Of a DNA stretch of 50,814 nucleotides, positions 120 through 13,268 are shown in pieces. The DNA comes from Coriobacteriales bacterium (GTDB taxonomy: Bacteria > Actinomycetota > Coriobacteriia > Coriobacteriales > CADBOM01), in NCBI GenBank assembly GCA_050946255.1, contig JBMNUL010000003.1:1-50814 (forward strand), written 5' to 3'. Position 1 is the stretch's first letter, and each line of letters begins with the position of its first letter. Position numbers and translations under genes: made by a program. The notes under the pieces are model-generated. The model saw only the letters and a list, made by a program, of their open reading frames with translations, was not told the DNA's origin and searched no databases.

Positions 120-3100
120 TCAGGCCAAGATCTCAGCGGGAACCTCCATGCTCTCCCTGCCGCCGGCCTCTGGGTTGCTGGCCTCTGCCTTCTCGCGCTT
201 CTCGATGTTGTTGTCGCGGTCGAAGTTGGCCTTCGCAACCGAGATCATGAGCTTGATCCTGTTCAGCTGGTTGACCTCCGAGGCGCCAGGGTCATAGTCC
301 ACGGCCACGATGTTGGCGGTGGGGTTGAGCCTGCGCAGCTCCTTGATAACTCCTTTGCCGGTAACGTGGTTGGGCAAGCAGGCGAAAGGCTGGGCGCAGA
401 TGATGTTGGGGCATCCGCTCTCGATGAGCTCGATCATCTCGCCGGTCAGGAGCCATCCCTCGCCCATCGTGTTGCAAAGCTGGAGCACGTTGTCGGCATA
501 TTCTGCGAGCTCCATTACGTTTGCCGGGACCGTGAACCTCTTGGAATTGGCAAGTGCATCCCTAAGCGGCGTGCGCGCCATGCCGATGAGCTCGAGCACT
601 ATGCGCGAGCCGATTGCGGAGAGCTTGGGCCTGCCGAGGAAGCGGTTGTACCAGATGGAATTCGAGATTCCGTAGAGGAAGAACTCCACCAAGCCGGGAA
701 CCACGGCCTCGCACCCCTCTGCCTCGATGACGTCGACCACCTGGTTGTTCGCAGTGGGATGGAACTTCACGAGAATCTCGCCCACGACTCCAACGCGGGG
801 CTTGCTGCGGTCGTTCACCAGCGGGAGGTTGTCGAAGTCCTCGACGATTGCGTGCACGTTCTTGTCGAATCCCGACGGGGTTGTGTTGTGCAGGTCGTCC
901 TTCAGATATTCCATCCACTTGCGGAAGAGCTCGTTTGCGGCACCCGGAGTGGCCTCGTAAGGACGCACGCGGTAGAGGCACTGCATCATCAGGTCGCCGT
1001 AGATCAGGGCCATGAATCCCTGGTAGAGCATTATGGGGCCGATGTGGAATCCGGGGTTGTCCTCGCCGAGCTTGTGGAACGCAAGTGAGATGACGGGGAT
1101 GTTTGGATATCCGGCCTCTTTCAGGGCCTTGCGGATCAGAGCTATGTAGTTGGTTGCTCGGCAGCCTCCACCGGTCTGGGTGATGATGACGGCCAAGTGG
1201 TCGGTGTCGTACTTGCCAGAGAGCACGGCCTCCATGATCTGGCCGGTAACGAGAATGGACGGATAGCAAACATCGTTGTTGGCATACTTCAATCCAGCCT
1301 CGACAGCACCATGGTCCACCGAGGGTAGCACCTCGAGGTTGTATCCCCAATCGCGGAACACCCGCTCGAGCAGCTCGAAGTGGATGGGGGCCATCTGCGG
1401 GGAGATGATCGTGTAGCCCTCTTTCTTCATCTGCTTCGTGTACTGGGCCTTGTGGAAAGAGGTTGGGGTGCCCTTCTGTATCGGGAGCCCTATGCTTTTC
1501 GCGAGCCTGCGGATCAAGCTGGTGTCGGCGAGGCCTTCTTCGTATTGCTTCTCGGTGCCAGTCGCCTTCTTTCTAGACTTTCCCCTGCCCTCGGGATGCC
1601 AGTTGAGCTGGAGCTTGGAGGCGGGAATCTCAGCTGCACGCTCCTTTGCGGTCTTCTGTCTGGTTGCAGGTCCACCTTCGACCGGGGCAGAAGAGGATTG
1701 CGACGTGGTGTCGGAAGAAACTGCAGATGCAACTGCAGATCCCACATTTGACGCAACATCCTTTACAGTCGCACCGGCGTCTGCAATAGCAGACCCTGCA
1801 TTGGCAACTGCATCGGCTCCTGCAGAGATTGCCCCGTCCCTGAGTTCTCCCATCGACTCAAACAAAGTCTTGCCCCTTTCGGTGAGGACCTTGTCGGTTG
1901 CAAGAGAGGCCTTTTCCGCCGGACAGGTGTCCCCAGCGGCGATCATCGCACGCGCCGCTGCCCTGCGGTCGTGAGATGCGGCAACCGAAGCCCCTTTGTT
2001 CGACTGCTTCTCATCTAGGGCGGCGATCAGGGAACGGATCCTGATCCTGGCGGCTCCCAGGTTGGAGACCTGGTCGATTTTCAGCACAGTGTAGATCTTG
2101 CCGGATGCCTCCAAGATTTCCTGGACCTGATCGGTGGTCACTGCGTCGAGCCCACAGCCGAAAGAGTTCAGCTGGATAAGGTCGAGATTCGGGAGCATCG
2201 TCACGACCTTGGCCGCCGCGTAGAGCCTGGAATGGAACATCCACTGGTCGATGACCCTGATGGGACGGTCGGGCTTGACTAGATGTGCCACGGAATCCTC
2301 GGTCAGAACGGCCAACCCGTAGCTCGCGACGAGCTCGGGAATCGCGTGGTTGATCTCGGGGTCCTGATGGTAGGGCCTTCCGGCGAGCACGATGCCATGC
2401 CTGTTGTTGTCGGCAAGCCAGCGCAGGGTCTCCTCGCCCTTCTTGTGCATGTCGTCCTTGAAATGGGCGTCCTCTGCCCATGCGGCCTCGGTGGCAGCCT
2501 CGATTTCCTCCAACGTCGGAGGGGTGCCCTTGGCCTCTGGATGCTCGGAATAATACTTGAGGGATATCTCCTCGTAGAGCCTCTGCGGAAAGAACTCCGG
2601 GTTGTCGTATGGGACGAAAGGCTTGAGGAACGGCATCTCCCCGGAATTGAGCTTGTCGATGTTGAGATGCAGCACCTCTGGGTAGCTCACGACGACCGGG
2701 CAATTGTAGTGATTCATGGCCTTTTCGTCTTCCTGCCTCTCCCAGCGGATGCATGGCATGAAGATGAAGTCGACGCCCTTGTCGATCAGGTTCATGATGT
2801 GCCCATGGCTGAGCTTGGCAGGATAGCAGGCGTTCTCGGACGGCATGGACTCGATGCCGGCCTCATATGTCTTGGCAGACGTCTTGTCGGAGAGCACGAC
2901 GCGGAACCCCAGCTTGGTGAAGAACGTGAACCAGAACGGGTAGTTCTCGTACATGTTGAGGGCACGCGGGATTCCCACGGTCGGGCGCGTTGCCTCCTCT
3001 TCCGACAACGGCTCGTAGTCGAAGAGGCGCTTGGACTTGTATTCGAACAGGTTGGGGACGTCCTTGGTTGCAGCTCCCCTGCCCGAGCCCTTCTCGCATC

Positions 3101-5108
3101 GGTTTCCGGTTATGAAGCGGCGTTTCTTGCCAGTGACCTCGTCCACACCGAAGTCGTTGATCGTGAGCAGGCAGTGGTTGGAGCAACCCTTGCAGCGCGT
3201 GGTGGTGTGCTTGACCTCGAGGGAGTCGAGCTTCTCGGGAGTCAGAAGTGTCGACCTCGGGGCGAAAGCGGCAAGATCCTCGTCATCGAGGGCCGAGAGG
3301 TCCAGGCTCTCGTCCTGCTCTGCACGGTCGCGGGCGAGGAGCGCTGCACCATAGGCGCCCATCAATCCCGCTACATCGGGTCGCACGGCCTCGCATCCGG
3401 ACAGCAGCTCGAACGAGCGCAGGATCGCGTCGTTTAGGAAAGTGCCTCCCTGCACGACCACGTGTTCGCCGATCTCGCTGGCATCGCGCAGCTTGATGAC
3501 CTTGAACAGCGCGTTCTTGATGACCGAGTAAGACAGGCCGGCGGAAATGTCGCCTACGGTGGCCCCCTCTTTCTGCGCCTGCTTGACCCTGGAGTTCATG
3601 AACACCGTGCAGCGGCTTCCGAGGTCGACCGGGTGCTCGGCGGCAATTGCCGCCTTCGCGAACGACTGCACGTCCATATTAAGTGAGTCTGCGAACGTCT
3701 CGATGAACGACCCGCAACCAGAGCTGCAGGCCTCGTTCAACATGATGTGGTCGATGACGCCGTTTCGCACCTGCATGCACTTCATGTCCTGCCCGCCGAT
3801 GTCCAAGATGAACTGGACATCTGGTTCGAGCTCGCGGGCACCGCGGAGATGCGCGACGGTCTCAACCTCGCCGGAATCGCAGCGGAGAGCTTCCAACAGG
3901 AGCCCCTCTCCGTATCCAGTTACCGTGGCATGGCCCAGCTTCACGACCGGGCGGCCCTTGGAGTCGGTGGGGAGAGACTTGTACATGTCGAGGAGGACCC
4001 TCTTGGCGGACCCGAGAACATCTCCCTTGTTGTTGCCATACCAGGACTTGAGGATCTGGCCATCTCGACCTATGAGAGCGGCCTTGAAGGTCGTGGACCC
4101 GGCGTCGATTCCCAAATAGGCCTCCCCTCGATAAGTGGAGAGATCTCCCTTGGGAACCACGTCTTTGCCATGGCGCTCCTTGAACTCCTGATAATCCTCG
4201 GGAGTGGCGAACAGCGGGTCGAGCCTTGTGATCTCATTGCCCTGGGTCTCGCCTAGGGCATGGAGGCGGTCGAGTATCTGCGAGAGCGTCAGGGTCTCGG
4301 TGCTCTCGGCTGCGATGGCAGCGCCGCACGCCACGAACAGATGGGCGTTGTCAGGCTTGATCGAGTGCTCCTCATCCAGATTGAGGGTAATCTCGAACCG
4401 CTTCTTGAGCTCGGAGAGGTACTGTAGAGGCCCGCCCAGAAATGCAACATACCCTCTGATCGGGCGCCCGCAGGCAAGACCGGAAATCGTCTGGGTTACG
4501 ACGGATTGGAAGATGGATGCCGCGATATCATGACGGTCGGCCCCCTCGTTCAGAAGCGGCTGAACATCGGATTTTGCGAACACGCCGCAGCGCGATGCGA
4601 TCGGGTAGATGATCTTGGCGTCCTTGGCAAGCTCGTTCAACCCCGGGGCATCGGTGTTGAGAAGCGATGCCATCTGGTCGATGAAGGCTCCGGTTCCTCC
4701 AGCACAGGTGCCGTTCATGCGCTGCTCTATCCCATTGTCGAAATAGATGATCTTGGCGTCCTCGCCACCAAGCTCGATCGCGACGTCCGTCTGCGGGATG
4801 AAGGTCTCGACCGCGGTCTTGGAGGCAACGACCTCCTGCACGAACTCGAGGTCGAGCCATTGGGAGAGCAGAAGTCCACCGCTGCCAGTGATGGCAGTAG
4901 TCAGGGGCACATCCTCGAACTCGGCAACCGCCTCTTCCAAAATCTGCGAGATCGTGGCGCGAATGTCGGTATGGTGACGACGGTACTTGGAGAAAAGGAT
5001 GTTGTTGTCATCATCGAGAATCGCAAGCTTCACCGTTGTGGAGCCAACGTCGATTCCAAGGTGCTTCACCGACTTGTCTCCAACGGGGGTCTTTTCAATA
5101 TCGGTCAT
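120..5108 (-). CDS. plsA: Fused PlsA/PlsR-type anaerobic plasmalogen synthase-like protein (2x BadF/BadG/BcrA/BcrD activase ATPase + DUF2229 + 2-hydroxyacyl-CoA dehydratase-like domain)
   Basis: 1662 aa. Two ASKHA activase modules ([10 protein letters not shown]...ELGGEDAK...[10 protein letters not shown]...SRCGVF; [10 protein letters not shown]...DIGGQDMK...[10 protein letters not shown]...SRCTVF), then [24 protein letters not shown] and [26 protein letters not shown]. This matches the architecture of Clostridium PlsA+PlsR and their single-gene fusions. The family is secure; the plasmalogen function is inferred. Confidence 0.8.
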
Positions 5109-5791
5109 CTCAGATCACCGTCCACCTCAATTGGATCTCCAGGGCTCAGGAACGAGAGATGCACCAGCACCCCCGCCATCTCCTCTGGGGTCTCCTTCAT
5201 TCCAGTTTCAATCCACGTGCGCACGACTCCAAGAGAGGCGTGCGAGAAATAGGCCACGTAATAGTCGACCATCTTGGTTCGGTTCTCCTTGTATTTAGGG
5301 CTGAGAACGCGGTCGACAATCGTGTTGCAAACCGTATCGAGCATCCTGCGCTCGAACCCTATGTCACCGTTCGGGCCAATCAGGGCGTTGAGCAGACCCG
5401 AGTGCTTCCCGAGGAACTCGAAGATGTCGACGAGGGGCTGAAGGGGCTTCAACCCGATGTAGGCCATTCCGAGCTCTTCGGGGGACACATCTGCCATCTC
5501 GGCCTCGATGTCGCTCAGCTCATCGAAAAACTCCACCTCGCAGAAGTGAACCAGGTCGTTCTTGTCCTTGAAGTGGCTGTAGAAAGTGCTGCGGTTGAGA
5601 TCGGCACGATCGGTTACATCGGACACGTTGAATCCATCGATGCCGCGTTCCTCTATCAGAGAGATGGCCGCATCGTGGAGCATGCGGCGCGAGCGGACAT
5701 AGCGTCTGTCGTTCTCACGTTGATGCTGCTCGGTCCCCGTTGCGTTCTCGATCTTGCCGGTCTCCTCTTTGGCAATTGAAGTCTTTGACAA
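5105..5791 (-). CDS. TetR/AcrR family transcriptional regulator
   Basis: N-terminal HTH ([45 protein letters not shown]) and a TetR C-terminus ([19 protein letters not shown]). 4-bp ATGA overlap with the downstream enzyme gene. Confidence 0.92.
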
Positions 5792-6255: not shown

Positions 6256-6915
6256 CTACATAGACCTCCACCTGCGAACCTCTGGCGAGCAGCAGTTGGG
6301 CTGATACTGCTGATTCTCCTCATCTTCGTGATACCTGTCCCGGAGAAAGCCCATGAAAAGCGGCACCGCATATGGCACAACCTTCGAGACGTAGCCCGGT
6401 GACAGGGACTTCGGAGTTTTCGACATTGGCTCCGGTCTTTGGCTGCGTGCCCCTTCGGACTCTCCGCTATTCCCGCCTGCTGCCAGCTCCGAAATCCTGG
6501 GCATGACATTTTCCATGAGCTCCGGCATTATCTCTGGAAGCTTCTCCTCTATGCGCTCTAGTCCCGAGTCGCTCTTTGCCATCCTTCGCATTCTGGCCTT
6601 CTTGAACTTCGGCATTGACTCGAACATCTCCGGGAAAAGAGGTTTTATCGCAACTGCCAGATTCTTCGGCTCCATGAGGTGTCCGGAGGATTCCAGGTCT
6701 TGGTCAATGCCAGCTGCATCAGCCGAACCCGAGGTGGCATTGCAACCACCGGCGTTCTCCCCTGCCCGATCGGAGCCTTCTTGACGATCGTAGAATCCCC
6801 TCTTCTTGAAATAGTAGTTCGAGTAGTAGTTCGCCTGCGCCTGGCATCGAGGGCAGAACGTCATCATCTCGCTAGAGTCATCGCTTGAGCTATTGCTTTT
6901 GTTGAAAAGTCCCAT
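6256..6915 (-). CDS. Hypothetical protein (CxxC motif, Met/Pro-rich helical segment)
   Basis: 219-aa ORF with a strong SD (GAGGAGGG) upstream of the ATG. Contains FCPRCQ and PEIMPELMENVMP. Confidence 0.7.
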   Translation of the reverse strand: MGLFNKSNSSSDDSSEMMTFCPRCQAQANYYSNYYFKKRGFYDRQEGSDRAGENAGGCNATSGSADAAGIDQDLESSGHLMEPKNLAVAIKPLFPEMFESMPKFKKARMRRMAKSDSGLERIEEKLPEIMPELMENVMPRISELAAGGNSGESEGARSQRPEPMSKTPKSLSPGYVSKVVPYAVPLFMGFLRDRYHEDEENQQYQPNCCSPEVRRWRSM

Positions 6916-7005
6916 TTCTAATCCCTCCTCAATTGGCCAGGTCTAACTTCAATATCACACTTCTCGTGGTCAACTACAGAATACGTCTCAATTCCTCTGG
7001 ATTCC

Positions 7006-7018
7006 GTGACGAAGTCAC
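7006..7018. promoter_or_regulatory. Palindromic Crp/Fnr-like binding site in a divergent promoter region
   Basis: GTGAC-GAA-GTCAC (CGTGA-N5-TCACA) in the AT-rich spacer between the 6256-6915 gene and the LRR gene. Confidence 0.4.
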
Positions 7019-7198
7019 ATGAGTTCACGCCGATAATCGACACTTATGTGCTCTTTATTTTTTATTAAGAATAATAACCGCAGGGAAATCGACCCGGGTA
7101 TTACGATAGAGTCGTAAATAGGATTTCAGTTCTCGCAGACCGCCAAAAAATTTCTGCACCAGGTCCTGCGTGTCAAGAGTAATAAGAGTGACGTCAGC

Positions 7199-9022
7199 AT
7201 GAAGATCGCCCTCCACACCAACAAGTACACATCCCGAATCCGTAGACTCCGCATCTCGGAAAGCCTCAAGAGCGGGGAGTTCGAGATTGTGCTGCGCAAC
7301 GAATCTGGCAAGAGGGAACTCCACATAGGCAGGGGAATCGAGACCGTGAACATTCCCCACATCACCGATATGCTGTTCGACATCGTCACAATAGACGAGC
7401 GAAACCCGTGGTTGAGATCATTTGGCGGCTGCATCTACAGTGCCACCGGGAAAACATTGCTGCGATGCGCTGTGCGGGAGAGCCGTTGCACTGTGGCAAG
7501 TGGAACCGAGGCCATCGCCAGCGAGGCCTTCGCATACAACACGATGTTGGAGGAAATAGTTCTCCCAGAAGGTTTGGAGACGATAGAAGAGAGGGCTTTC
7601 TCCGGATCCGCGCTGAAACAGATTTCCATGCCATCCTCCTTGCGAAAGATCTGCGCGCGTGCCTTCTCCAACTGCCATTCGCTCAAGGAGGTCGAGCTCA
7701 ACGAGGGGCTCGAGCTGATAGGCGACAGCGCATTTTCCGGATGCGACCAGCTGAAGAACGTTCTGATTCCCAAAACGGTGAAGGAGATTCACGTAAGCTC
7801 GTTCACACACGCAAGAAACAACTCCGAAGGCCGCATCTCAATCGACTCTGAAAACCCATGCTTCCTCTTGGACAGGGGCGAGGTCCTCTACCGTCGTCTC
7901 GAAGACGGCCTAGAGCTCATGGGTGAAATGGGGAAAGTCTCGGGAACCTACAGGGTGGTCGCTGGGACCCGGCGTATAGAGGACGCGGCGTTCAGATTCA
8001 ACCAGACATTGCTGGAGGTCGTGCTTCCCGAAGGTCTTGAGAAAATCGGAGACTTCGCGTTCAAGGGATGCGACAACTTGCGCTGCGCGAACTTCCCGTC
8101 CACCATCAAGTCGATAGGAAATGAGGCGTTCCTCTCGACCAACCTCGAGTCCATCCACATACCCGCCAGCCTGAGCTCAATTGGCGAGCTGGCTTTCTCT
8201 TGCAGAGGCGGCGGTTGGGAAAGAAACCCATTCCCAGTCGTCATCTCTACTTTCGGACTCACGAGGACGCGGGCCAAACCCAAACCGAAGGCGAAGGAAG
8301 GCTCTTGTCTCACCACCGTAGAGGATGGAAACGAGCGTTATTGCATAGCCAACGGATTCCTCTGCGAGCGATTGGAAGATGGGACCCTTTGCGCGATAAA
8401 GTACATCGCCCACGATGAAAGCGTCTCGGTGCCGAGGCAAGTTGTGATGATAGAACGCGAGGCGCTGGTAGACGCGCGGAGCGTGAGAACTCTTCAGCTG
8501 CACGATGGAGTCAGGAAAATCCGCGACCATGGGCTCTTCATCACCCATCCCCTTCTGAAGATAATGGCGACGACGGAAACCACAGACGTAGATTTCGAGG
8601 TCTATCCGGTGCAGAGCTACTTCGGGGTCTGGGCTCAGAACCACGCTTTCATCGATGGGAAGCTCGACCTTGAGCTCCTTGCCTACGACTGCGACTACAC
8701 GCTTTATCACAGCCAGGTTGGATTCGAGCGGAGCTGGAGAATGCTCTCGAGGCTTTGCCATCCTCTGTTCCTATCCGAGGAACTGAACGAGAGGTTCAAC
8801 CAGGAGCTCCACAGTTCCCTGCTGAACTTGGTTGCTGACTTTTCCCGGAGGGATTACCTCGAGGGACTGCGGCAGCTGTTCGATGTCGGGCTGATAGACA
8901 ATTCGAATATCTACCGCTGCATAGACGCTGCCAACAGGTCCCATGGAGTCTCGGCGACGGGATTTCTCATGGAAGAGAGCCATCGACGCCTTTCAGAGCC
9001 AACCATTGACCTCTCGCTGTGA
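7199..9022 (+). CDS. BspA/TpLRR-type (LRR_5) leucine-rich repeat protein, apparently cytoplasmic
   Basis: Repeats such as LEEIVLPEGLETIEERAFSGS, LKEVELNEGLELIGDSAFSGCD, LLEVVLPEGLEKIGDFAFKGCD and LESIHIPASLSSIGELAFS. No signal peptide, TM helix or sorting motif; helical C-terminal domain. Confidence 0.88.
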   Translation: MKIALHTNKYTSRIRRLRISESLKSGEFEIVLRNESGKRELHIGRGIETVNIPHITDMLFDIVTIDERNPWLRSFGGCIYSATGKTLLRCAVRESRCTVASGTEAIASEAFAYNTMLEEIVLPEGLETIEERAFSGSALKQISMPSSLRKICARAFSNCHSLKEVELNEGLELIGDSAFSGCDQLKNVLIPKTVKEIHVSSFTHARNNSEGRISIDSENPCFLLDRGEVLYRRLEDGLELMGEMGKVSGTYRVVAGTRRIEDAAFRFNQTLLEVVLPEGLEKIGDFAFKGCDNLRCANFPSTIKSIGNEAFLSTNLESIHIPASLSSIGELAFSCRGGGWERNPFPVVISTFGLTRTRAKPKPKAKEGSCLTTVEDGNERYCIANGFLCERLEDGTLCAIKYIAHDESVSVPRQVVMIEREALVDARSVRTLQLHDGVRKIRDHGLFITHPLLKIMATTETTDVDFEVYPVQSYFGVWAQNHAFIDGKLDLELLAYDCDYTLYHSQVGFERSWRMLSRLCHPLFLSEELNERFNQELHSSLLNLVADFSRRDYLEGLRQLFDVGLIDNSNIYRCIDAANRSHGVSATGFLMEESHRRLSEPTIDLSL

Positions 9023-10905
9023 GGTGCAACCAGATCATGGCTGGGCAGACTCCCGATTACGGAACACCGGGCAAAGAGGATTTCGACCCCAGGATCGAGG
9101 ATCTTGCAAGGAGAATCATCTCCGAATGCCGTGTCAACCTCATGATGGCCTTCCGATTCCTCGATGCCGCACTTTGGAAGATGCCGCTGGTTGCACGTGA
9201 GCTGTCCAAGCCGATCTCAACCGATTGTCATGCCCTGTACTTCAACCCTCCCCTTGTGGTCGAGACGTTCCGCGAAAACCCCAATGCAATAGTTCGCACG
9301 CTCCTGCACTCGATTTTGCACTGCGTTTTCAGGCACCCCTTGGTCAGAGAGAGGTTCGAACCCGGCCTCTGGTCGCTCTCCTGCGATGTCTGCATCGAAT
9401 CGATTGCGCTCGAGATGCTATCGGAGAGATTCGCGCTGCCAGACGACGGCCCTCGGAAAAACCTTATAGATGAAGTTCAGAAGGCCCTTGGCACCACCAC
9501 CCCAATGAAGGTGTACAACTCGCTGGAGAAGATGGAGCTCGGAATCGGCTCCGTGAACAACGTGCTCATGCAGCAGCTTCTGCAGTTCTCAGAATCGTTT
9601 CGAGCCGACAGCCACGAGACCTGGCTCCTCCGCAAACGTGAAGAGGAGAGCCCCGAGGTGCCCCAAGAGGATGGGGACCAGGGCGATGGAGACGGAGACG
9701 ACGGTGCAGAAGGTTCAGGAAATTCTGCGGAGAGCGGTTCGAAACCAGACGACGAAGGCGATCAAGACTCGGGAGATGGCAACTCCAGCCAGGGCAACAC
9801 CGAGGAAGAGGCTGGAGAGAGCCCTGATGACGGCGGAGAATCGGACGAGGAAGATTCTGAATCCTCCGACGGAGGCGAAGCTCGTCAGGGTGGCGACCAG
9901 GAGGAAGAGGGCCGTTCTGGTTCATCTGAGGATGAGTACGCTGACTCAAACGATGACAGCGGCAGGGCCGGAGCCAACGGCGCCGCCTCAGAAGAAGACG
10001 ACGAAGATGGGCAGGACGGCTATTCATTCGGCAAGGGAGATTCCCGGGATGAAGATGACCTGTCTGGCATGGGTGCGGGAAATGGAACCGGCTCGGAGGG
10101 TGAGGGCAACATCCAATATGAAGAGGGAGAGCTGCGTGACCCAGTTGGCCCAGATCACGATGAAGAGGACTGGGAGCGCATCGCCCAACAGGTGCAGGTG
10201 GACCTCGAGACTCTCTCCAAGAGACGGGGCGAAGGCGCCGGAACTTTGATGGCGAATCTCGAACTTGCCAACAGGTCCACAGTAGACTACGAGGACTTCC
10301 TCAGAAGATTTGCCACGATGTCGGAGGAAATGACCCTGAACGATGAGGAGTTCGACTACATCTTCTACACCTATGGGATAAACCGATATGGCAACGTCGC
10401 CCTGATAGAGCCTCTCGAATACAAGGACACCAAGCGTGTTCGTGACTTCGTGATAGCTGTCGACACCTCGGGCTCAACTGAGGGCGAGCTCGTGCGGAGG
10501 TTCCTCACCAGCACCTACGAGATTCTCTGCGAGGCGAGCTCTTTTGGCAGCAAGGTCAACATCCACATCATCCAGTGCGATGCGGAGGTGCGCAAAGACG
10601 ACAAAATCGAGGATCTGGCGCAATTCCGGCAATTCGTGAGGAGCTTCAACGTGGCAGGTGGTGGAGGGACGGACTTCAGGCCGGTATTTGCCTACGTGAA
10701 CCAACTTGTGGAACAGGACGAGTTCGACGACCTCCAGGGTCTCATCTACTTCACCGATGGGTACGGGGTCTTCCCAGAGCGAAAACCCGACTACGAGACC
10801 GCTTTCGTCTTCGTGGAGGAAAACGGTGAGGAGCGCCGCGTGCCGCCGTGGGCGATGAAGGTCTTGATCACAGGAGAGGACATCCGGGAGATGGCGGCGA
10901 GATGA
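9019..10905 (+). CDS. DUF2201-type protein: N-terminal zincin-like domain, acidic linker, C-terminal vWA (MIDAS) domain
   Basis: LLHSILHCVFRH (HExxH-like), a D/E/G/S-rich linker, then IAVDTSGS (DxSxS), GGGGTDF and YFTDG. The start is either the GTG at 9019 overlapping the LRR stop, or the ATG at 9037 after SD GAGGTG. Confidence 0.88.
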   Translation: MRCNQIMAGQTPDYGTPGKEDFDPRIEDLARRIISECRVNLMMAFRFLDAALWKMPLVARELSKPISTDCHALYFNPPLVVETFRENPNAIVRTLLHSILHCVFRHPLVRERFEPGLWSLSCDVCIESIALEMLSERFALPDDGPRKNLIDEVQKALGTTTPMKVYNSLEKMELGIGSVNNVLMQQLLQFSESFRADSHETWLLRKREEESPEVPQEDGDQGDGDGDDGAEGSGNSAESGSKPDDEGDQDSGDGNSSQGNTEEEAGESPDDGGESDEEDSESSDGGEARQGGDQEEEGRSGSSEDEYADSNDDSGRAGANGAASEEDDEDGQDGYSFGKGDSRDEDDLSGMGAGNGTGSEGEGNIQYEEGELRDPVGPDHDEEDWERIAQQVQVDLETLSKRRGEGAGTLMANLELANRSTVDYEDFLRRFATMSEEMTLNDEEFDYIFYTYGINRYGNVALIEPLEYKDTKRVRDFVIAVDTSGSTEGELVRRFLTSTYEILCEASSFGSKVNIHIIQCDAEVRKDDKIEDLAQFRQFVRSFNVAGGGGTDFRPVFAYVNQLVEQDEFDDLQGLIYFTDGYGVFPERKPDYETAFVFVEENGEERRVPPWAMKVLITGEDIREMAAR

Positions 10906-11018
10906 TCGATGCGCAGGCCGCACCGAGAAAGCAAGAGCCGGTACTATGTAAGCAGAATCCGATACCATGTCGACGGAAACCGGCACCAGGAGCAGAAAGT
11001 TTTGCAGGAGGGATCTAG

Positions 11019-12539
11019 ATGAACATCGCAGAGGCGAAGGAGCAGGTCAAGACGACCGTCCGCGCATATCTGGAGAAAGACGAGCTCGGGTTTTTCCGAA
11101 TCCGTCCCGCCAACCAGAGACCGGTGTTCCTGATCGGCGCGCCGGGAATCGGGAAAACCGCGATCATGGAACAGATTGCCTCTGAGCTGGGAATAGGGCT
11201 CGTGAGCTATTCGATGACCCACCACACCCGTCAATCTGCTCTTGGCCTTCCGATGATCGTTCACCGCAAGCTCTCGGACGGAACGGAATTCGACATCTCC
11301 GAGTACACGATGAGCGAGATCATCGGCTCCATCTACGACTACCGAGAGGAAACGGGGCTTGAGAACGGAATTCTATTCCTGGACGAGATCAACTGCGTAT
11401 CGGAGACCCTCTACCCATCTATGCTCCAGTTCCTGCAGTTCAAGACATTTGGGAGGCACAAGGTCCCAGATGGATGGATCGTGGTCTGCGCTGGCAATCC
11501 CCCCGAGTACAACCGCTCTGTGCATGAGTTCGACATCGTGACGCTCGACCGTATGCGCAAAATCGAGGTGGAACCAGATTACGAGACATGGAAGGACTAC
11601 GCTCGCACCACCAACGTGCACCCCGCGATTCTCACATACCTAGACGTGAGACCCGAAGACTTCTATGTGGTTGAGAGCACGCCGGAGGGCAAGAGCTTCG
11701 TGAGCGCCCGAGGGTGGAGCGACCTCTCCGTTTACATAAAGCTGCTCGAGGACCTTGGGTGCCCGGTCGACAAGGACGTGGTCTCCCAGTTCCTGCAGCA
11801 TGAGGAGGTGGCCGAGAGATTCGCCGCCTACTACGACCTGTTCGACAAGTACAAGAGCGATTATCAAATCGAATCGATCTTGAACGGCACTGCGCCAGAG
11901 ACGATTGCAGAGAGGGCGAAGGCGGCCGAATTCGACGAGCGCCTTGCCCTGCTGGGTCTAATTCTCGACAGGATCTGCGGAGACATGCGAACGGTCCTCG
12001 AGCAACTGGACATGCTCACCGACGTCCGGGATGACCTGCGCGCTTCCAAAGCCGAGATACTTGATTCTGCAGATTCAGCAAGCGCAGCTTCTGCAATTGA
12101 CGAATGCATCTCCTCCCATAACGAAAGGGCGCAGAGGGCAAATCGAACCGGAGTCGGTCTGGATGCGGCACGGAAAGAGCAGCAGGCCATAAATCTTCTG
12201 AAGGAGCTAAAGGAATCGATTGGGAACAAGAAGGGCCAGGAGGCTTTCAACGCCGTCGAATCATCGTTTGAGATGAAAGGTGACGAGATGAAGGACGCGT
12301 CCGACAGCACGTCGACGATGCTGGACAATGCCTTCGAGTTCATTGAGAGGACCTTTGGAAATGAACGCGAGATGCTCGTGTTCGTAACTGAGCTCACCGC
12401 CAGATGGGAAAGCTCGCAGTTCATTGGCAGGTTCGGCTCCGATAGCTACTATGCCCACAACCAGGACCTCATGGTGGAGCGCACCCGCGACGAGCTTTTC
12501 AGGGAAATCGACGATATCGCATCTGGCAATCGCGACTGA
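11019..12539 (+). CDS. MoxR-like AAA+ ATPase with a C-terminal helical/coiled-coil extension
   Basis: Walker A GAPGIGKT, Walker B LFLDEIN, sensor-1 CAGNPPEY, LDRM arginine finger, SARGW sensor-2. SD GGAGG. Confidence 0.9.
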   Translation: MNIAEAKEQVKTTVRAYLEKDELGFFRIRPANQRPVFLIGAPGIGKTAIMEQIASELGIGLVSYSMTHHTRQSALGLPMIVHRKLSDGTEFDISEYTMSEIIGSIYDYREETGLENGILFLDEINCVSETLYPSMLQFLQFKTFGRHKVPDGWIVVCAGNPPEYNRSVHEFDIVTLDRMRKIEVEPDYETWKDYARTTNVHPAILTYLDVRPEDFYVVESTPEGKSFVSARGWSDLSVYIKLLEDLGCPVDKDVVSQFLQHEEVAERFAAYYDLFDKYKSDYQIESILNGTAPETIAERAKAAEFDERLALLGLILDRICGDMRTVLEQLDMLTDVRDDLRASKAEILDSADSASAASAIDECISSHNERAQRANRTGVGLDAARKEQQAINLLKELKESIGNKKGQEAFNAVESSFEMKGDEMKDASDSTSTMLDNAFEFIERTFGNEREMLVFVTELTARWESSQFIGRFGSDSYYAHNQDLMVERTRDELFREIDDIASGNRD

Positions 12540-12563
12540 TTGCAACAGGCAGACGCCTGAGCC

Positions 12564-13268
12564 TCATTCGGAACGTGCCAAGTCAGAAAGAGACGCGGTG
12601 TCGACCAGCTTAATCATGCCCCGCGACAGCTCGACCAGCCCTTCCTGCGAGAAATACTTCAGCATGCGGGAGACGACCTCCCGAGCACTGCCAAGCTCGG
12701 AGGCGATCTGCTCGTGGGTTCGCCTGACCACCAGAGTTCCATCAGCCTCATCCGGTTCCGCAGCTTCGAGCAGGAAGTTTGCCAGCCTCTTGTCGAAGCT
12801 CACGAACAGCACTTGGTAGAACACCCACATCACCTCGGAGAACCTCAGCGCGGTCTGCTCATAGGAATAGGCCTTGACCTGCACATTCTGCATCAGCGAT
12901 TGAAACACGTCGGAGGGGATTACGAGAAGCTCGGAATCTGCCAGGACGTCTATGCAGATATCGAAGTCGATGGAAAGCAGCGCGCATGAAGCCGAGAGAA
13001 CGCAGTTCTCGTTTGGGAAAATGTGGAAGAGGGAGATGGAGCGTCCGTTCTGCGCGGTCATCGAGGCCCTCAGCTCACCGGAGAGCAGGAAGATGACCCC
13101 CACGCAGTCGTTGCCGCCATATTGCACAACCTGCCCTGTCTCATATGAATGGAAACTGGCTGTTTGGAGGACCATCGCCTTTTCTGTAGAGGCCAGCTCA
13201 TCCCAAACTGGAAGCTGTGAGCGCATGACCCCCTCGATATCTTCTTCGCTGCGTTTGGGAATGCCCAT
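12564..13268 (-). CDS. Crp/Fnr family transcriptional regulator
   Basis: cNMP-binding-like beta-barrel (FLLSGELRAS...ENCVLSASC) and HTH THEQIASELGSAREVVSRMLKYF. Start re-called to ATG 13268 (SD AGGAG); the ORF track's 13637 start runs through intergenic repeats. Confidence 0.9.
   Translation of the reverse strand: MGIPKRSEEDIEGVMRSQLPVWDELASTEKAMVLQTASFHSYETGQVVQYGGNDCVGVIFLLSGELRASMTAQNGRSISLFHIFPNENCVLSASCALLSIDFDICIDVLADSELLVIPSDVFQSLMQNVQVKAYSYEQTALRFSEVMWVFYQVLFVSFDKRLANFLLEAAEPDEADGTLVVRRTHEQIASELGSAREVVSRMLKYFSQEGLVELSRGMIKLVDTASLSDLARSE

What the first reader, a model, noticed from the sequence alone, without database searches (positions are those of the whole stretch)
7199..12539. 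Candidate undescribed ternary system: cytoplasmic LRR + zincin/vWA + MoxR AAA+ ATPase
Seen: three co-oriented genes on the plus strand, with the LRR stop overlapping the next start (GTGA at 9019-9022), flanked by minus-strand genes and preceded by an AT-rich promoter region. Established: MoxR ATPases work with vWA partners (RavA-ViaA, NorQ-NorD, CbbQ-CbbO, CoxD-CoxE) to remodel a client. MoxR-vWA plus a third variable component has been proposed as a class of 'ternary' conflict systems (Kaur et al. 2020 eLife). Here no enzyme client (reductase, Rubisco, CODH) is adjacent, and the third gene is an LRR ligand-binding solenoid with no export signal. Inference: the LRR is the sensor or client-recognition subunit, the vWA the adaptor and MoxR the remodeller, possibly an innate-immunity-like anti-phage or protein quality-control module. 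I know of no experimental characterisation of this triad.
Basis: partly seen in the sequence, partly recalled or inferred. Interest (0 to 1): 0.85.

Follow-up and report, generated by a model that had tools for sequence, protein, structure and literature searches.

The report
Conserved LRR, vWA and AAA+ gene trio
Three neighbouring genes for a cytoplasmic leucine-rich-repeat protein, a metal-binding vWA protein and an AAA+ ATPase form a widespread, unstudied module in anaerobic bacteria, in which the repeat protein carries its own conserved tail and probably docks onto the ATPase machine.

Summary
Window 7199-12539 encodes, on the plus strand, an LRR_5 protein, a DUF2201_N/DUF2201 (zincin-like plus vWA) protein and an AAA_5 ATPase. 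They sit between minus-strand genes.

The link between the three genes is not chance. An LRR_5 gene lies beside the vWA-AAA pair in 63 of 80 loci from Coriobacteriia and Clostridia, and in 14 of 20 loci from relatives in the same order. Its position varies: upstream, between the two genes, downstream or divergent.

- The partner LRR proteins share a C-terminal helical module and a hydrophobic-x-Leu-COOH tail, and they lack export signals.
- The zincin motif is HxxxH, with Glu in 0 of 65 sequences. The MIDAS site is intact.
- Most Coriobacteriia relatives fuse a SAM methyltransferase to the ATPase; the window copy does not.
- The window's genome holds three vWA-AAA pairs.

Flanking genes are housekeeping and differ between loci. 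PADLOC finds no defence system.

Best reading: the LRR protein is a dedicated docking subunit (adaptor or sensor) of a MoxR-like/vWA remodeller. It could instead be the client. A defence role is unsupported but not excluded. I rate it a new variant of the MoxR-vWA ternary theme, with no description found in the papers searched.

The parts
6916..7198 (.). Intergenic region upstream of the LRR gene, divergent from the minus-strand gene 6256-6915. It holds an AT-rich stretch at about 7045-7080 and is the presumed promoter region.
   Evidence: Sequence read. No consensus sigma-70-like site was found here, so a promoter is inferred, not shown.
7199..9022 (+). Partner protein, 607 aa: a BspA-type LRR_5 solenoid plus a C-terminal helical module and tail. 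No export signal.
   Evidence: Pfam LRR_5 7e-49. PDB sequence hits to BspA-type LRR proteins such as 4fs7 and 4gt6. Foldseek top hits are 4cp6, 4gt6 and 4fs7. Model mean pLDDT 82.2. Hydropathy scan.
7376..8608 (+). LRR/beta-solenoid region (about aa 60-470), interrupted by a low-confidence loop at aa 338-367.
   Evidence: Secondary structure and pLDDT of the model; LRR_5 matches.
8618..8992 (+). C-terminal helical module (aa 474-598, eight helices). It is shared by the partner proteins of this system and matches no Pfam family.
   Evidence: Model. Alignments A3 and A5. In the Atlas, the nearest clusters are LRR_5 or hypothetical proteins with no named family for this part. An HMM of the module finds it at the C-terminus of a neighbouring ORF in 56 of 80 loci; this count is circular because the HMM was built from those sequences.
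8993..9019 (+). C-terminal tail, ending ...IDLSL-COOH. Family pattern: [D/E/G]-[F/L/Y]-[E/D/S]-L-COOH.
   Evidence: Of 77 partner proteins, 51 end in Leu and 48 match hydrophobic-x-L at the end. Among other genes of the same loci the figures are 53 of 492 and 20 of 492.
9019..10905 (+). vWA component, 628 aa (alternative start ATG at 9037): zincin-like N-domain, acidic disordered linker, vWA domain.
   Evidence: Pfam DUF2201_N and DUF2201. Model: N-domain and vWA at high pLDDT, aa 228-374 below 50. Foldseek hits to vWA/integrin I domains.
9307..9321 (+). Degenerate zincin motif H97-S-I-L-H101 (HxxxH; the Glu of HExxH is missing). Conserved H106, D123 and E127 follow.
   Evidence: Across the 65 sequences: H97 65 of 65, H101 65 of 65, position 98 Glu 0 of 65, H106 64 of 65, D123 65 of 65, E127 64 of 65. 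Of 5 other actinobacterial DUF2201_N proteins, 3 have HExxH and 2 have HHVGH.
9649..10149 (+). Acidic low-complexity linker (about aa 211-377, rich in D, E, G and S).
   Evidence: Translation; pLDDT below 50 over aa 228-374.
10462..10476 (+). MIDAS motif D482-T-S-G-S486. Further MIDAS residues are T551 and D580.
   Evidence: Alignments: D482, D552, T579 and D580 are invariant; T483, S484, S486 and T551 are nearly invariant.
11019..12539 (+). AAA+ ATPase, 506 aa, AAA_5 type (MoxR-like in the broad sense), with a conserved C-terminal helical half. This copy has no methyltransferase domain.
   Evidence: Pfam; alignment A1; at least 8000 90%-identity clusters of homologues, carrying only generic names.
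11136..11159 (+). Walker A motif GAPGIGKT (aa 40-47).
   Evidence: Translation; G40, P42, G43, G45, K46 and T47 are invariant in A1.
11373..11387 (+). Walker B motif LFLDE (aa 119-123).
   Evidence: L119 to E123 are invariant in A1.

Best explanation
The three genes encode one cytoplasmic machine.

- The motor is an AAA_5-type (MoxR-like) ATPase.
- Its co-factor is a vWA protein with an intact MIDAS site, an acidic flexible linker and an N-terminal zincin-like domain. That domain keeps its metal-ligand residues but has lost the catalytic Glu, so it probably binds rather than cleaves.
- The third subunit is the LRR_5 protein. It belongs to a distinct family of export-signal-free LRR proteins defined by a C-terminal helical module and a hydrophobic-x-Leu-COOH tail.

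I infer that this module and tail dock the LRR protein onto the vWA/AAA pair. The variable LRR solenoid would then select a protein ligand that the ATPase remodels or releases. In that reading the LRR protein acts as an exchangeable adaptor or sensor.

Shown: domain content, motif states, conserved linkage, the shared C-terminal module and tail, and the absence of export signals.

Inferred: physical docking, the role of the tail, the direction of action (adaptor rather than client), and the biological role.
For: Domains and motifs.

Linkage:
- The largest neighbour cluster around 80 vWA-AAA loci has 82 proteins in 63 of 80 loci, and 77 of 82 match LRR_5.
- In relatives from the same order, an LRR_5 partner gene lies beside the vWA gene in 14 of 20 loci; 13 have it on the same strand as the pair and 1 has the AAA gene inverted. 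Another 2 loci have a divergently transcribed partner with the same tail.
- The window's genome has LRR hits on only 4 of 248 contigs, so chance adjacency would be about 1-2% by my own estimate.
- The partner's position differs between lineages: upstream, between, downstream or divergent, in 1 to 4 tandem copies. Linkage has therefore survived rearrangements.
- No other gene family is conserved in the flanks: the commonest family occurs in 4 of 147 flanking proteins.

Partner family:
- The C-terminal helical module aligns across Coriobacteriia and Clostridia.
- Leu is the last residue in 51 of 77 partners, against 53 of 492 for other genes.
- None of 65 tail-bearing partners has a signal-like or transmembrane segment.
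- The third paralogous system in the same genome (contig C204) has, after its vWA gene, a non-LRR helical protein (weak Ank_2 hit, E 0.0093) that also ends ...LDLTL.

The LRR protein is the most divergent component.
Against: - No binding, expression or phenotype data exist for any member.
- 17 of 80 loci have no LRR-cluster neighbour, and 24 of 80 have none by the stricter C-module test. Some of these loci are contig-truncated, and some have divergent partners that the tests missed.
- One vWA-AAA pair of the same genome (C36) has no adjacent partner, and one partner gene (C59) stands alone. The link is therefore not obligatory in cis.
- The C-module count uses an HMM built from the same proteins, so it is circular.
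- Related genomes are not independent samples.
- A conserved C-terminal hydrophobic tail fits a substrate tag engaged by an AAA+ pore as well as it fits a docking peptide, so the data do not separate adaptor from client.
- The MoxR assignment is weak: AAA_5 scores 35 bits, bpMoxR 27.1 against a cut-off of 27, and profile hits to solved structures cover only the P-loop region.
Confidence: 0.45

Rival explanations
1. The LRR proteins are the clients. The AAA ring engages their C-terminal hydrophobic-x-Leu tail, as ClpX engages the ssrA tag or CbbX the RbcL tail (both recalled from the literature). It then unfolds, matures or assembles the LRR proteins, with the vWA MIDAS holding them.
For: - The conserved extreme C-terminal tail and Leu-COOH.
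- 1 to 4 LRR genes per vWA-AAA pair.
- No other conserved linked gene that could be a client.
- In known MoxR-vWA pairs the linked gene is usually the client (established knowledge: CbbQO-Rubisco, NorQD-NorB).
Against: - LRR solenoids have no cofactor or active site that needs maturation.
- Repeat number varies greatly (partners of 275 to 1812 aa) while the docking module stays constant. That pattern is more typical of specificity subunits.
- MoxR-class ATPases are not known to thread substrates (recalled).
Confidence: 0.27
2. The triad is an anti-phage or conflict system of the MoxR-vWA ternary type, with the LRR protein as the invader sensor.
For: - Three-part architecture with a fast-diverging repeat component.
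- Several paralogous systems per genome: 3 vWA-AAA pairs in the window's genome.
- Patchy distribution: the AAA is found in 22 of 61 genomes of the order.
- No shared flanking genes between loci.
- The ATPase's only curated MoxR-family hit is bpMoxR, the ATPase of the beta-propeller ternary systems. According to Kaur et al. 2020 (passages read), those systems also lack conventional effectors.
Against: - PADLOC finds nothing for the LRR and vWA proteins and only a weak P-loop hit for the AAA.
- No effector domain is present, and the zincin lacks its catalytic Glu.
- The flanks are housekeeping genes. No PADLOC model occurs in more than 3 of 147 flanking proteins, and Cas1 models matched single members only.
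- Close homologues filed as 'Bacteriophage sp.' are unannotated faecal-virome scaffolds. The one I examined is a bacterial chromosomal fragment.
Confidence: 0.15
3. The vWA-AAA pair is a metal-cofactor insertion chaperone for an enzyme encoded elsewhere. The LRR gene is a passenger or has an unrelated role.
For: - Known MoxR-vWA pairs insert or repair metal centres (established knowledge).
- The zincin-like domain has conserved His, Asp and Glu ligands, and the MIDAS site is intact.
- Some pairs lack an adjacent LRR gene.
Against: - LRR linkage is found in 63 of 80 loci, in several gene orders.
- The partner has its own conserved module and tail.
- No enzyme gene recurs in the flanks.
Confidence: 0.08

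Closest known systems
Beta-propeller-containing MoxR-vWA ternary systems (Kaur, Burroughs, Iyer, Aravind 2020, eLife; PMC7159879; passages read)
   Same: A MoxR-like ATPase plus a vWA protein plus a third, variable repeat protein, with no conventional effector. The window ATPase's only curated MoxR-family hit is bpMoxR (27.1 bits against a cut-off of 27), and many homologues carry PF20030.
   Different: - Here the vWA protein has no C-terminal beta-propeller. Instead it has a DUF2201_N zincin-like N-domain.
- The third protein is LRR_5 with its own helical module and tail, not TPR/beta-propeller with a membrane segment.
- The hosts are Coriobacteriia and Clostridia, not the phyla named in that paper.
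- Gene order is not fixed.
VMAP ternary systems (same paper)
   Same: Three co-encoded core proteins, several paralogous systems per genome, and a third component that evolves faster.
   Different: - VMAP systems keep a strict order of VMAP, MoxR, vWA and carry effector domains. Here the order varies and there is no effector.
- 'LRR' occurs once in that paper's text, in the reference list, and 'BspA' does not occur. The supplements could not be seen.
Client-specific MoxR-vWA pairs: CbbQ-CbbO, NorQ-NorD, RavA-ViaA, BchI-BchD (recalled from the literature)
   Same: An AAA_5/MoxR-class ATPase paired with a MIDAS-bearing vWA protein. An acidic linker before the vWA domain, as in BchD (recalled).
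   Different: No enzyme client is linked; the conserved third gene is an LRR protein. No sequence match to any solved member was found: profile searches of the PDB gave no hit for the vWA protein and only P-loop-region hits for the AAA.
Tail-docking AAA+ adaptors and modular specificity subunits: SspB-ClpX, F-box/LRR proteins (analogy only, recalled)
   Same: A constant docking element (here the C-terminal module and tail) joined to a variable binding scaffold (here the LRR).
   Different: No homology is claimed, and docking has not been shown here.
BspA-type LRR_5 surface proteins (for example PcpA 4cp6 and Bacteroides/Faecalibacterium LRR structures)
   Same: The same repeat type and fold.
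   Different: The partners here lack signal peptides (0 of 65). They also carry a C-terminal helical module and tail that generic LRR_5 proteins do not have. LRR_5 neighbours without the tail instead end in a '...YA..xxIxF' type cap.

Membership tests
MoxR-class AAA+ ATPase (broad sense) | AAA+ core with Walker A and Walker B motifs | tested here: met
   GAPGIGKT (aa 40-47) and LFLDE (aa 119-123) are invariant in 17 sequences.
MoxR-class AAA+ ATPase (broad sense) | Match to curated MoxR-type models (AAA_3, AAA_5, bpMoxR) | tested here: inconclusive
   AAA_5 scores 35.3 bits (cut-off 22) and bpMoxR 27.1 bits (cut-off 27). AAA_3 is not among the 9 Pfam families listed at E up to 0.01. The best profile hit among solved structures is Midasin, 7.9e-8, over the P-loop region only.
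MoxR-class AAA+ ATPase (broad sense) | Helix-2 insert and pre-sensor-1 hairpin (clade-defining, per Kaur 2020) | not tested
The Atlas structural neighbours are only unnamed AAA/AAA_5 clusters.
MoxR-class AAA+ ATPase (broad sense) | Encoded next to a vWA protein | tested here: met
   By tblastn, a vWA domain lies adjacent to the AAA in 78 of 80 loci; L064 and L084, both short contigs, show none.
vWA domain with MIDAS | DxSxS ... T ... D metal site and the vWA fold | tested here: met
   D482, S484, S486, T551 and D580 are conserved. Foldseek hits to VWF A2 and integrin I domains, E about 1e-5.
Zincin metallopeptidase (DUF2201_N) | Pfam family match | tested here: met
   PF13203 scores 55.6 bits against a cut-off of 23.2.
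Zincin metallopeptidase (DUF2201_N) | HExxH with the catalytic Glu | tested here: not met
   The motif is HxxxH. At position 98, Glu occurs in 0 of 65 sequences (L, M, T, I, V or S instead). Of 5 other actinobacterial members, 3 have HExxH.
Beta-propeller MoxR-vWA ternary system (Kaur 2020) | vWA protein with a C-terminal beta-propeller; third protein with TPR plus beta-propeller | tested here: not met
   The vWA protein ends right after the vWA domain. The third protein is LRR_5.
VMAP ternary system (Kaur 2020) | Strict gene order VMAP-MoxR-vWA, with a VMAP-C domain and effector domains | tested here: not met
   The order here is LRR-vWA-AAA and varies elsewhere. No VMAP or effector Pfam hit was found.
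Known anti-phage defence systems (PADLOC-DB 2.0) | Proteins match the models of a described system | tested here: not met
   0 families for the LRR and vWA proteins. The AAA gives only weak IetA hits over aa 6-62 (22 bits).
BspA-type LRR_5 protein | LRR_5 repeats and fold | tested here: met
   Pfam 7e-49. PDB sequence hits 4fs7 and 4gt6. Foldseek top hits 4cp6, 4gt6 and 4fs7.
BspA-type LRR_5 protein | Secreted or surface location (signal peptide) | tested here: not met
   No hydrophobic N-terminal or transmembrane segment in the window protein or in 65 tail-bearing partners. This was a crude Kyte-Doolittle scan, not SignalP.

The most novel reading that the evidence does not exclude
This is a fifth class of MoxR-vWA ternary system, abundant in unicellular gut and digester anaerobes. 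Exchangeable cytoplasmic LRR receptors plug into a vWA/AAA+ remodeller through a dedicated helical module and a Leu-COOH tail. That would be a bacterial LRR-based intracellular sensing or quality-control device. In Coriobacteriia, the SAM methyltransferase fused to the ATPase might modify the tail or the bound ligand as a switch (speculative).
Probability: 0.2. Interest if true: 0.85.

Novelty: new variant of a known kind. Interest (0 to 1): 0.62.

Why it matters
It occurs in Eggerthellaceae, Lachnospiraceae, Oscillospiraceae and related groups, yet none of the three components has a known function.

Showing that an LRR protein is a built-in subunit of a MoxR-like/vWA machine would do three things:
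- It would give the first cytoplasmic role for the abundant BspA-type LRR proteins.
- It would add a new third component to the MoxR-vWA ternary theme.
- It would provide a defined docking tail that can be mutated to test the model.

Cultivable hosts exist by record title, including Paraeggerthella hongkongensis DSM 16106, Butyrivibrio proteoclasticus P18 and Slackia sp..

Tried and rejected
- Complex prediction. I ran the vWA protein (alignment A4) with Mg and Zn against the partner's C-terminal 160 aa (alignment A5). The verdict was 'no answer' (scores 0.00 and 0.00, mark 0.32) and the controls were not run. This is no evidence either way.
- Expression. No RNA holder was listed for window 7100-12600. 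One bioreactor-metagenome DNA run holds 0.93 of the sampled words and may be the source sample.
- Word-indexed search with LRR residues 340-607. It found only the query itself, so no close orthologues were available and dN/dS was not attempted.
- Exhaustive profile search with A5 (collected). The profile's N-terminal columns contained LRR repeats, so the top hits were giant LRR_5 proteins. Only rows whose match spans profile positions 3-166 at the protein's C-terminus look like true partners (for example P0052, P0063 and P0072, 719-768 aa). I draw no count from this search.
- DUF4132 as the identity of the C-terminal module. I rejected this. In the one large partner examined (L096), DUF4132 lies at aa 1517-1656, mostly upstream of the module, which maps to about the last 170 aa.
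- Remnant of a longer N-terminus upstream of 7199. None was found.
- Partner upstream of the C36 vWA-AAA pair. None was found.
- Synteny of the window's flanks with about 100 other loci. There was none, apart from one PurN hit in L092.
- Phage origin. The 5 records covering at least 80% of the AAA are unannotated 'Bacteriophage sp.' faecal-virome scaffolds. The one I examined (MT835935.1, marked UNVERIFIED) carries housekeeping genes plus an LRR-vWA-AAA trio. Named phages (Salmonella phage vB_SalP_TR2, Pantoea phage G19, Thermus phage phiFa, and PA5oct-like phages with records of about 285 kb) hold only distant ATPase relatives, 21-28% identical.
- Zincin fold check by Foldseek. The vWA hits dominated the list, so the N-domain fold was not tested independently.
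- Promoter and terminator scans gave nothing beyond chance.
Supplements of Kaur et al. 2020 could not be seen and may list further architectures.

Full report
**Observation**

The window holds three plus-strand ORFs at 7199-9022 (607 aa), 9019-10905 (628 aa) and 11019-12539 (506 aa).

Pfam assigns them as follows:
- LRR_5 (BspA type), 7e-49.
- DUF2201_N, 8.2e-15, plus DUF2201, 8.1e-12.
- AAA_5, 1.3e-8; AAA, 3.8e-7; and bpMoxR at its cut-off (27.1 against 27 bits).

GTGA sits at 9019-9022 as reported. An ATG at 9037 with GAGG upstream is an equally plausible start. The ATPase gene has a strong GGAGGG ribosome-binding site. No plus-strand terminator-like site lies in the 113-nt gap before it.

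The unit is bounded by minus-strand genes: a 219-aa protein with no family match, and a Crp-type regulator. Further out lie a TetR regulator, a 1662-aa CoA-enzyme activase, DUF711, GtrA and purN/purM/purF.

**Is the LRR gene really linked?**

In 61 genomes of the same order (the window's included), the ATPase is found in 22 and LRR homologues in 24.

I fetched 20 loci around the ATPase hits (with for G001):
- In 14, an LRR_5 partner gene lies directly beside the vWA gene. Of these, 13 have it on the same strand as the pair, one of them with two LRR genes. In G001 the ATPase gene is inverted.
- Two further loci (G041, G033) have a divergently transcribed protein of about 730 aa ending ...DRYAL. 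The G041 protein gives a weaker LRR_5 hit, and the same type in L055 ends ...DRFAL.
- Four showed none or could not be read.

A scan of one genome per species with an ATPase alignment returned 80 loci. By record title they come from Coriobacteriia and from Clostridia (Lachnospiraceae, Oscillospiraceae and others).

I clustered all genes within three positions of the vWA-AAA pair. The largest cluster had 82 proteins in 63 of 80 loci; the next largest had 7. Of the 82, 77 match LRR_5.

Their positions relative to the pair were:
- Upstream: 25.
- Between the vWA and AAA genes: 17.
- Downstream: 40, one of them on the opposite strand.

By record title, Coriobacteriia mostly show LRR-vWA-AAA, many Oscillospiraceae show vWA-LRR-AAA with up to four tandem LRR genes, and many Lachnospiraceae show vWA-AAA followed by an LRR gene of about 300 aa.

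The window's own genome has LRR hits on only 4 of 248 contigs, so adjacency by chance would be rare (my estimate is 1-2%). Related genomes are not independent. However, linkage retained through several different gene orders argues for function.

**The partner is a distinct LRR family**

Full-length relatives align over the whole protein at 25-31% identity.

The model (mean pLDDT 82.2) shows:
- a beta-solenoid to about residue 470;
- eight helices at residues 474-598, with pLDDT about 85-93;
- a free tail.

The helical part aligns across the Coriobacteriia, Oscillospiraceae and Lachnospiraceae partners. It has no Pfam match and no named family in the Atlas.

The proteins end in a recurring tail, for example ...DFDL, ...DFSL, ...EYDL, ...KFEL, ...GLEL and ...RYAL. 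The window protein ends ...IDLSL.
- 51 of 77 partners end in Leu, and 48 of 77 match hydrophobic-x-L at the end.
- Among other genes of the same loci the figures are 53 of 492 and 20 of 492.

None of 65 tail-bearing partners has a signal-like or transmembrane segment by a crude scan. An HMM of the module finds it at the C-terminus of an ORF within 3 kb of the pair in 56 of 80 loci. That count is circular, because the HMM came from these proteins.

**The vWA protein**

In 65 aligned sequences the zincin motif is HxxxH.
- H97, H101 and D123 are invariant.
- H106 and E127 are each present in 64 of 65.
- The residue that is Glu in HExxH is never Glu.

Other actinobacterial DUF2201_N proteins have HExxH (3 of 5) or HHVGH (2 of 5). 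A metal site is therefore probably retained while peptidase chemistry is probably lost. This is inference.

The MIDAS residues are conserved, and the C-terminal domain matches vWA/integrin I domains by Foldseek. The linker at about residues 211-377 is acidic and is modelled as disordered. No solved structure matches by sequence or by profile.

**The ATPase**

The Walker A and B motifs and a long stretch including SYSMTHHTRQSALGLP are invariant in 17 sequences. The only names given are 'ATP-binding protein', 'AAA family ATPase', 'hypothetical protein' or methyltransferase labels.

Many relatives, mostly from Coriobacteriia, are 740-870 aa long with a C-terminal class-I SAM methyltransferase. 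The window copy lacks it.

Assignment to MoxR is loose. There is no close solved relative, and profile hits to Midasin, p97 and RuvB cover only the P-loop region.

**The same genome has three systems**

Besides the window, contig C36 carries a vWA gene and an AAA-methyltransferase fusion with no adjacent partner. Contig C204 carries AAA, then vWA, then a 440-aa helical protein with a weak ankyrin hit that ends ...LDLTL. A second LRR partner with the module and a ...DFDL tail stands alone on C59.

**Context**

No flanking gene of the window recurs beside any of about 100 other loci, apart from one PurN hit in L092.

Among 147 flanking proteins from 46 loci, the commonest Pfam family occurs 4 times. 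The list is housekeeping: radical SAM, MatE, metallo-beta-lactamase, flavodoxin, GDSL lipase, FKBP/trigger factor, xanthine dehydrogenase and RelA/SpoT. PADLOC models hit at most 3 of the 147, and most of those models are generic ATPase or methylase models. The Cas1 models each matched a single flanking protein.

PADLOC finds nothing for the LRR and vWA proteins. 'Phage' records with close homologues are unannotated faecal-virome scaffolds. The one I examined carries bacterial housekeeping genes and again an LRR-vWA-AAA trio.

**Mechanism**

What is known of MoxR-vWA pairs (literature, and passages of Kaur et al. 2020 read) is that the vWA MIDAS holds a protein and the ATPase remodels or releases it.

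In this system the only conserved third gene is the LRR protein, and it has a constant C-terminal module and tail with a highly variable solenoid. I therefore favour a docking subunit that selects the target, that is, an adaptor or sensor. The tail could bind the MIDAS site through an acidic residue or the terminal carboxylate. It could bind the Glu-less zincin-like pocket, or it could bind the ATPase.

The same tail could equally be a pore-engaged tag, which would make the LRR protein the client. My odds are:
- adaptor or sensor: 0.45;
- client: 0.27;
- a defence role (which overlaps with 'sensor'): 0.15;
- an unrelated metal chaperone: 0.08.

One complex prediction gave no answer, and no RNA run was available.

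**Comparison and novelty**

Kaur et al. 2020 define four MoxR-vWA ternary classes: VMAP, iSTAND, FtsH and beta-propeller. None has an LRR_5 third component. In that paper's text, 'LRR' occurs only in the reference list and 'BspA' does not occur.

My other literature searches found nothing on this triad:
- DUF2201: 4 unrelated papers.
- BspA plus leucine-rich repeat plus MoxR: 0 papers.
- LRR plus vWA plus MoxR: 3 papers. In the two I checked by term search no LRR mention concerns this triad; the third I saw only in the listing.
- PF13203, PF09967 or 'VWA-like domain': 21 papers, none relevant judging from the 15 listed titles and abstracts.

Supplements and subscription journals were not searchable.

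The closest class is the beta-propeller one, through the borderline bpMoxR hit and the absence of an effector. Its defining propeller features are not met here. I rate this a new variant of a known kind.

Noticed in passing
L006 (G000:C36) 2485-4809; many relatives, e.g. L010 3758-6061, L013 8433-10787: In most Coriobacteriia relatives the ATPase is fused to a C-terminal class-I SAM methyltransferase (Methyltransf_31/25/11, UbiE/ArsM-like). One locus (L017 10631-11422) also has a separate methyltransferase gene upstream of the LRR gene. Together with the invariant C-terminal Leu of the partners, this suggests a possible methylation switch. This is speculation.
   Followed up: partly
L119 = MT835935.1 (collection 'phages'), whole record: A record filed as 'UNVERIFIED: Bacteriophage sp.' from a faecal virome carries an ABC exporter, radical SAM, M18 aminopeptidase, DegV, Mur-ligase-like and aminotransferase genes plus the LRR-vWA-AAA trio. 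It looks like a bacterial chromosomal fragment, not a phage.
   Followed up: yes
window 120-5108 (-) and 5105-5791 (-): A 1662-aa CoA-enzyme activase (two BcrAD_BadFG ATPase regions plus DUF2229) whose start overlaps the stop of a TetR regulator gene. It is unrelated to the finding.
   Followed up: no
G000:C36 1-552: The region upstream of the C36 vWA gene, translated in three frames, shows repeated peptide-like stretches (for example ...PEPLEFATRPS.NPRNLP.VPARTPGICHTSQPE...). This suggests tandem DNA repeats in an intergenic region.
   Followed up: no
phage records H8-H25: Named phages (Salmonella phage vB_SalP_TR2, Pantoea phage G19, Thermus phage phiFa, and Pseudomonas phage PA5oct and relatives with records of about 285 kb) encode distant relatives, 21-28% identical, of the ATPase N-terminal half. 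A DUF2201 protein is mentioned in a Delftia phage genome paper (PMC5735904, seen in search listings only). vWA-AAA pairs of this broad type may also exist in phages.
   Followed up: no
L096 1048-6486; L031 1992-6023: Some partners are very large. One of 1812 aa combines LRR_5, DUF4132 and the C-terminal module. One 1343-aa ORF joins an FAD-dependent oxidoreductase region to the LRR partner; this may be a real fusion or an artefact of my simple ORF calling.
   Followed up: partly
window 6256-6915 (-): The divergently transcribed 219-aa protein has no Pfam match and no homologue beside any other locus examined.
   Followed up: partly
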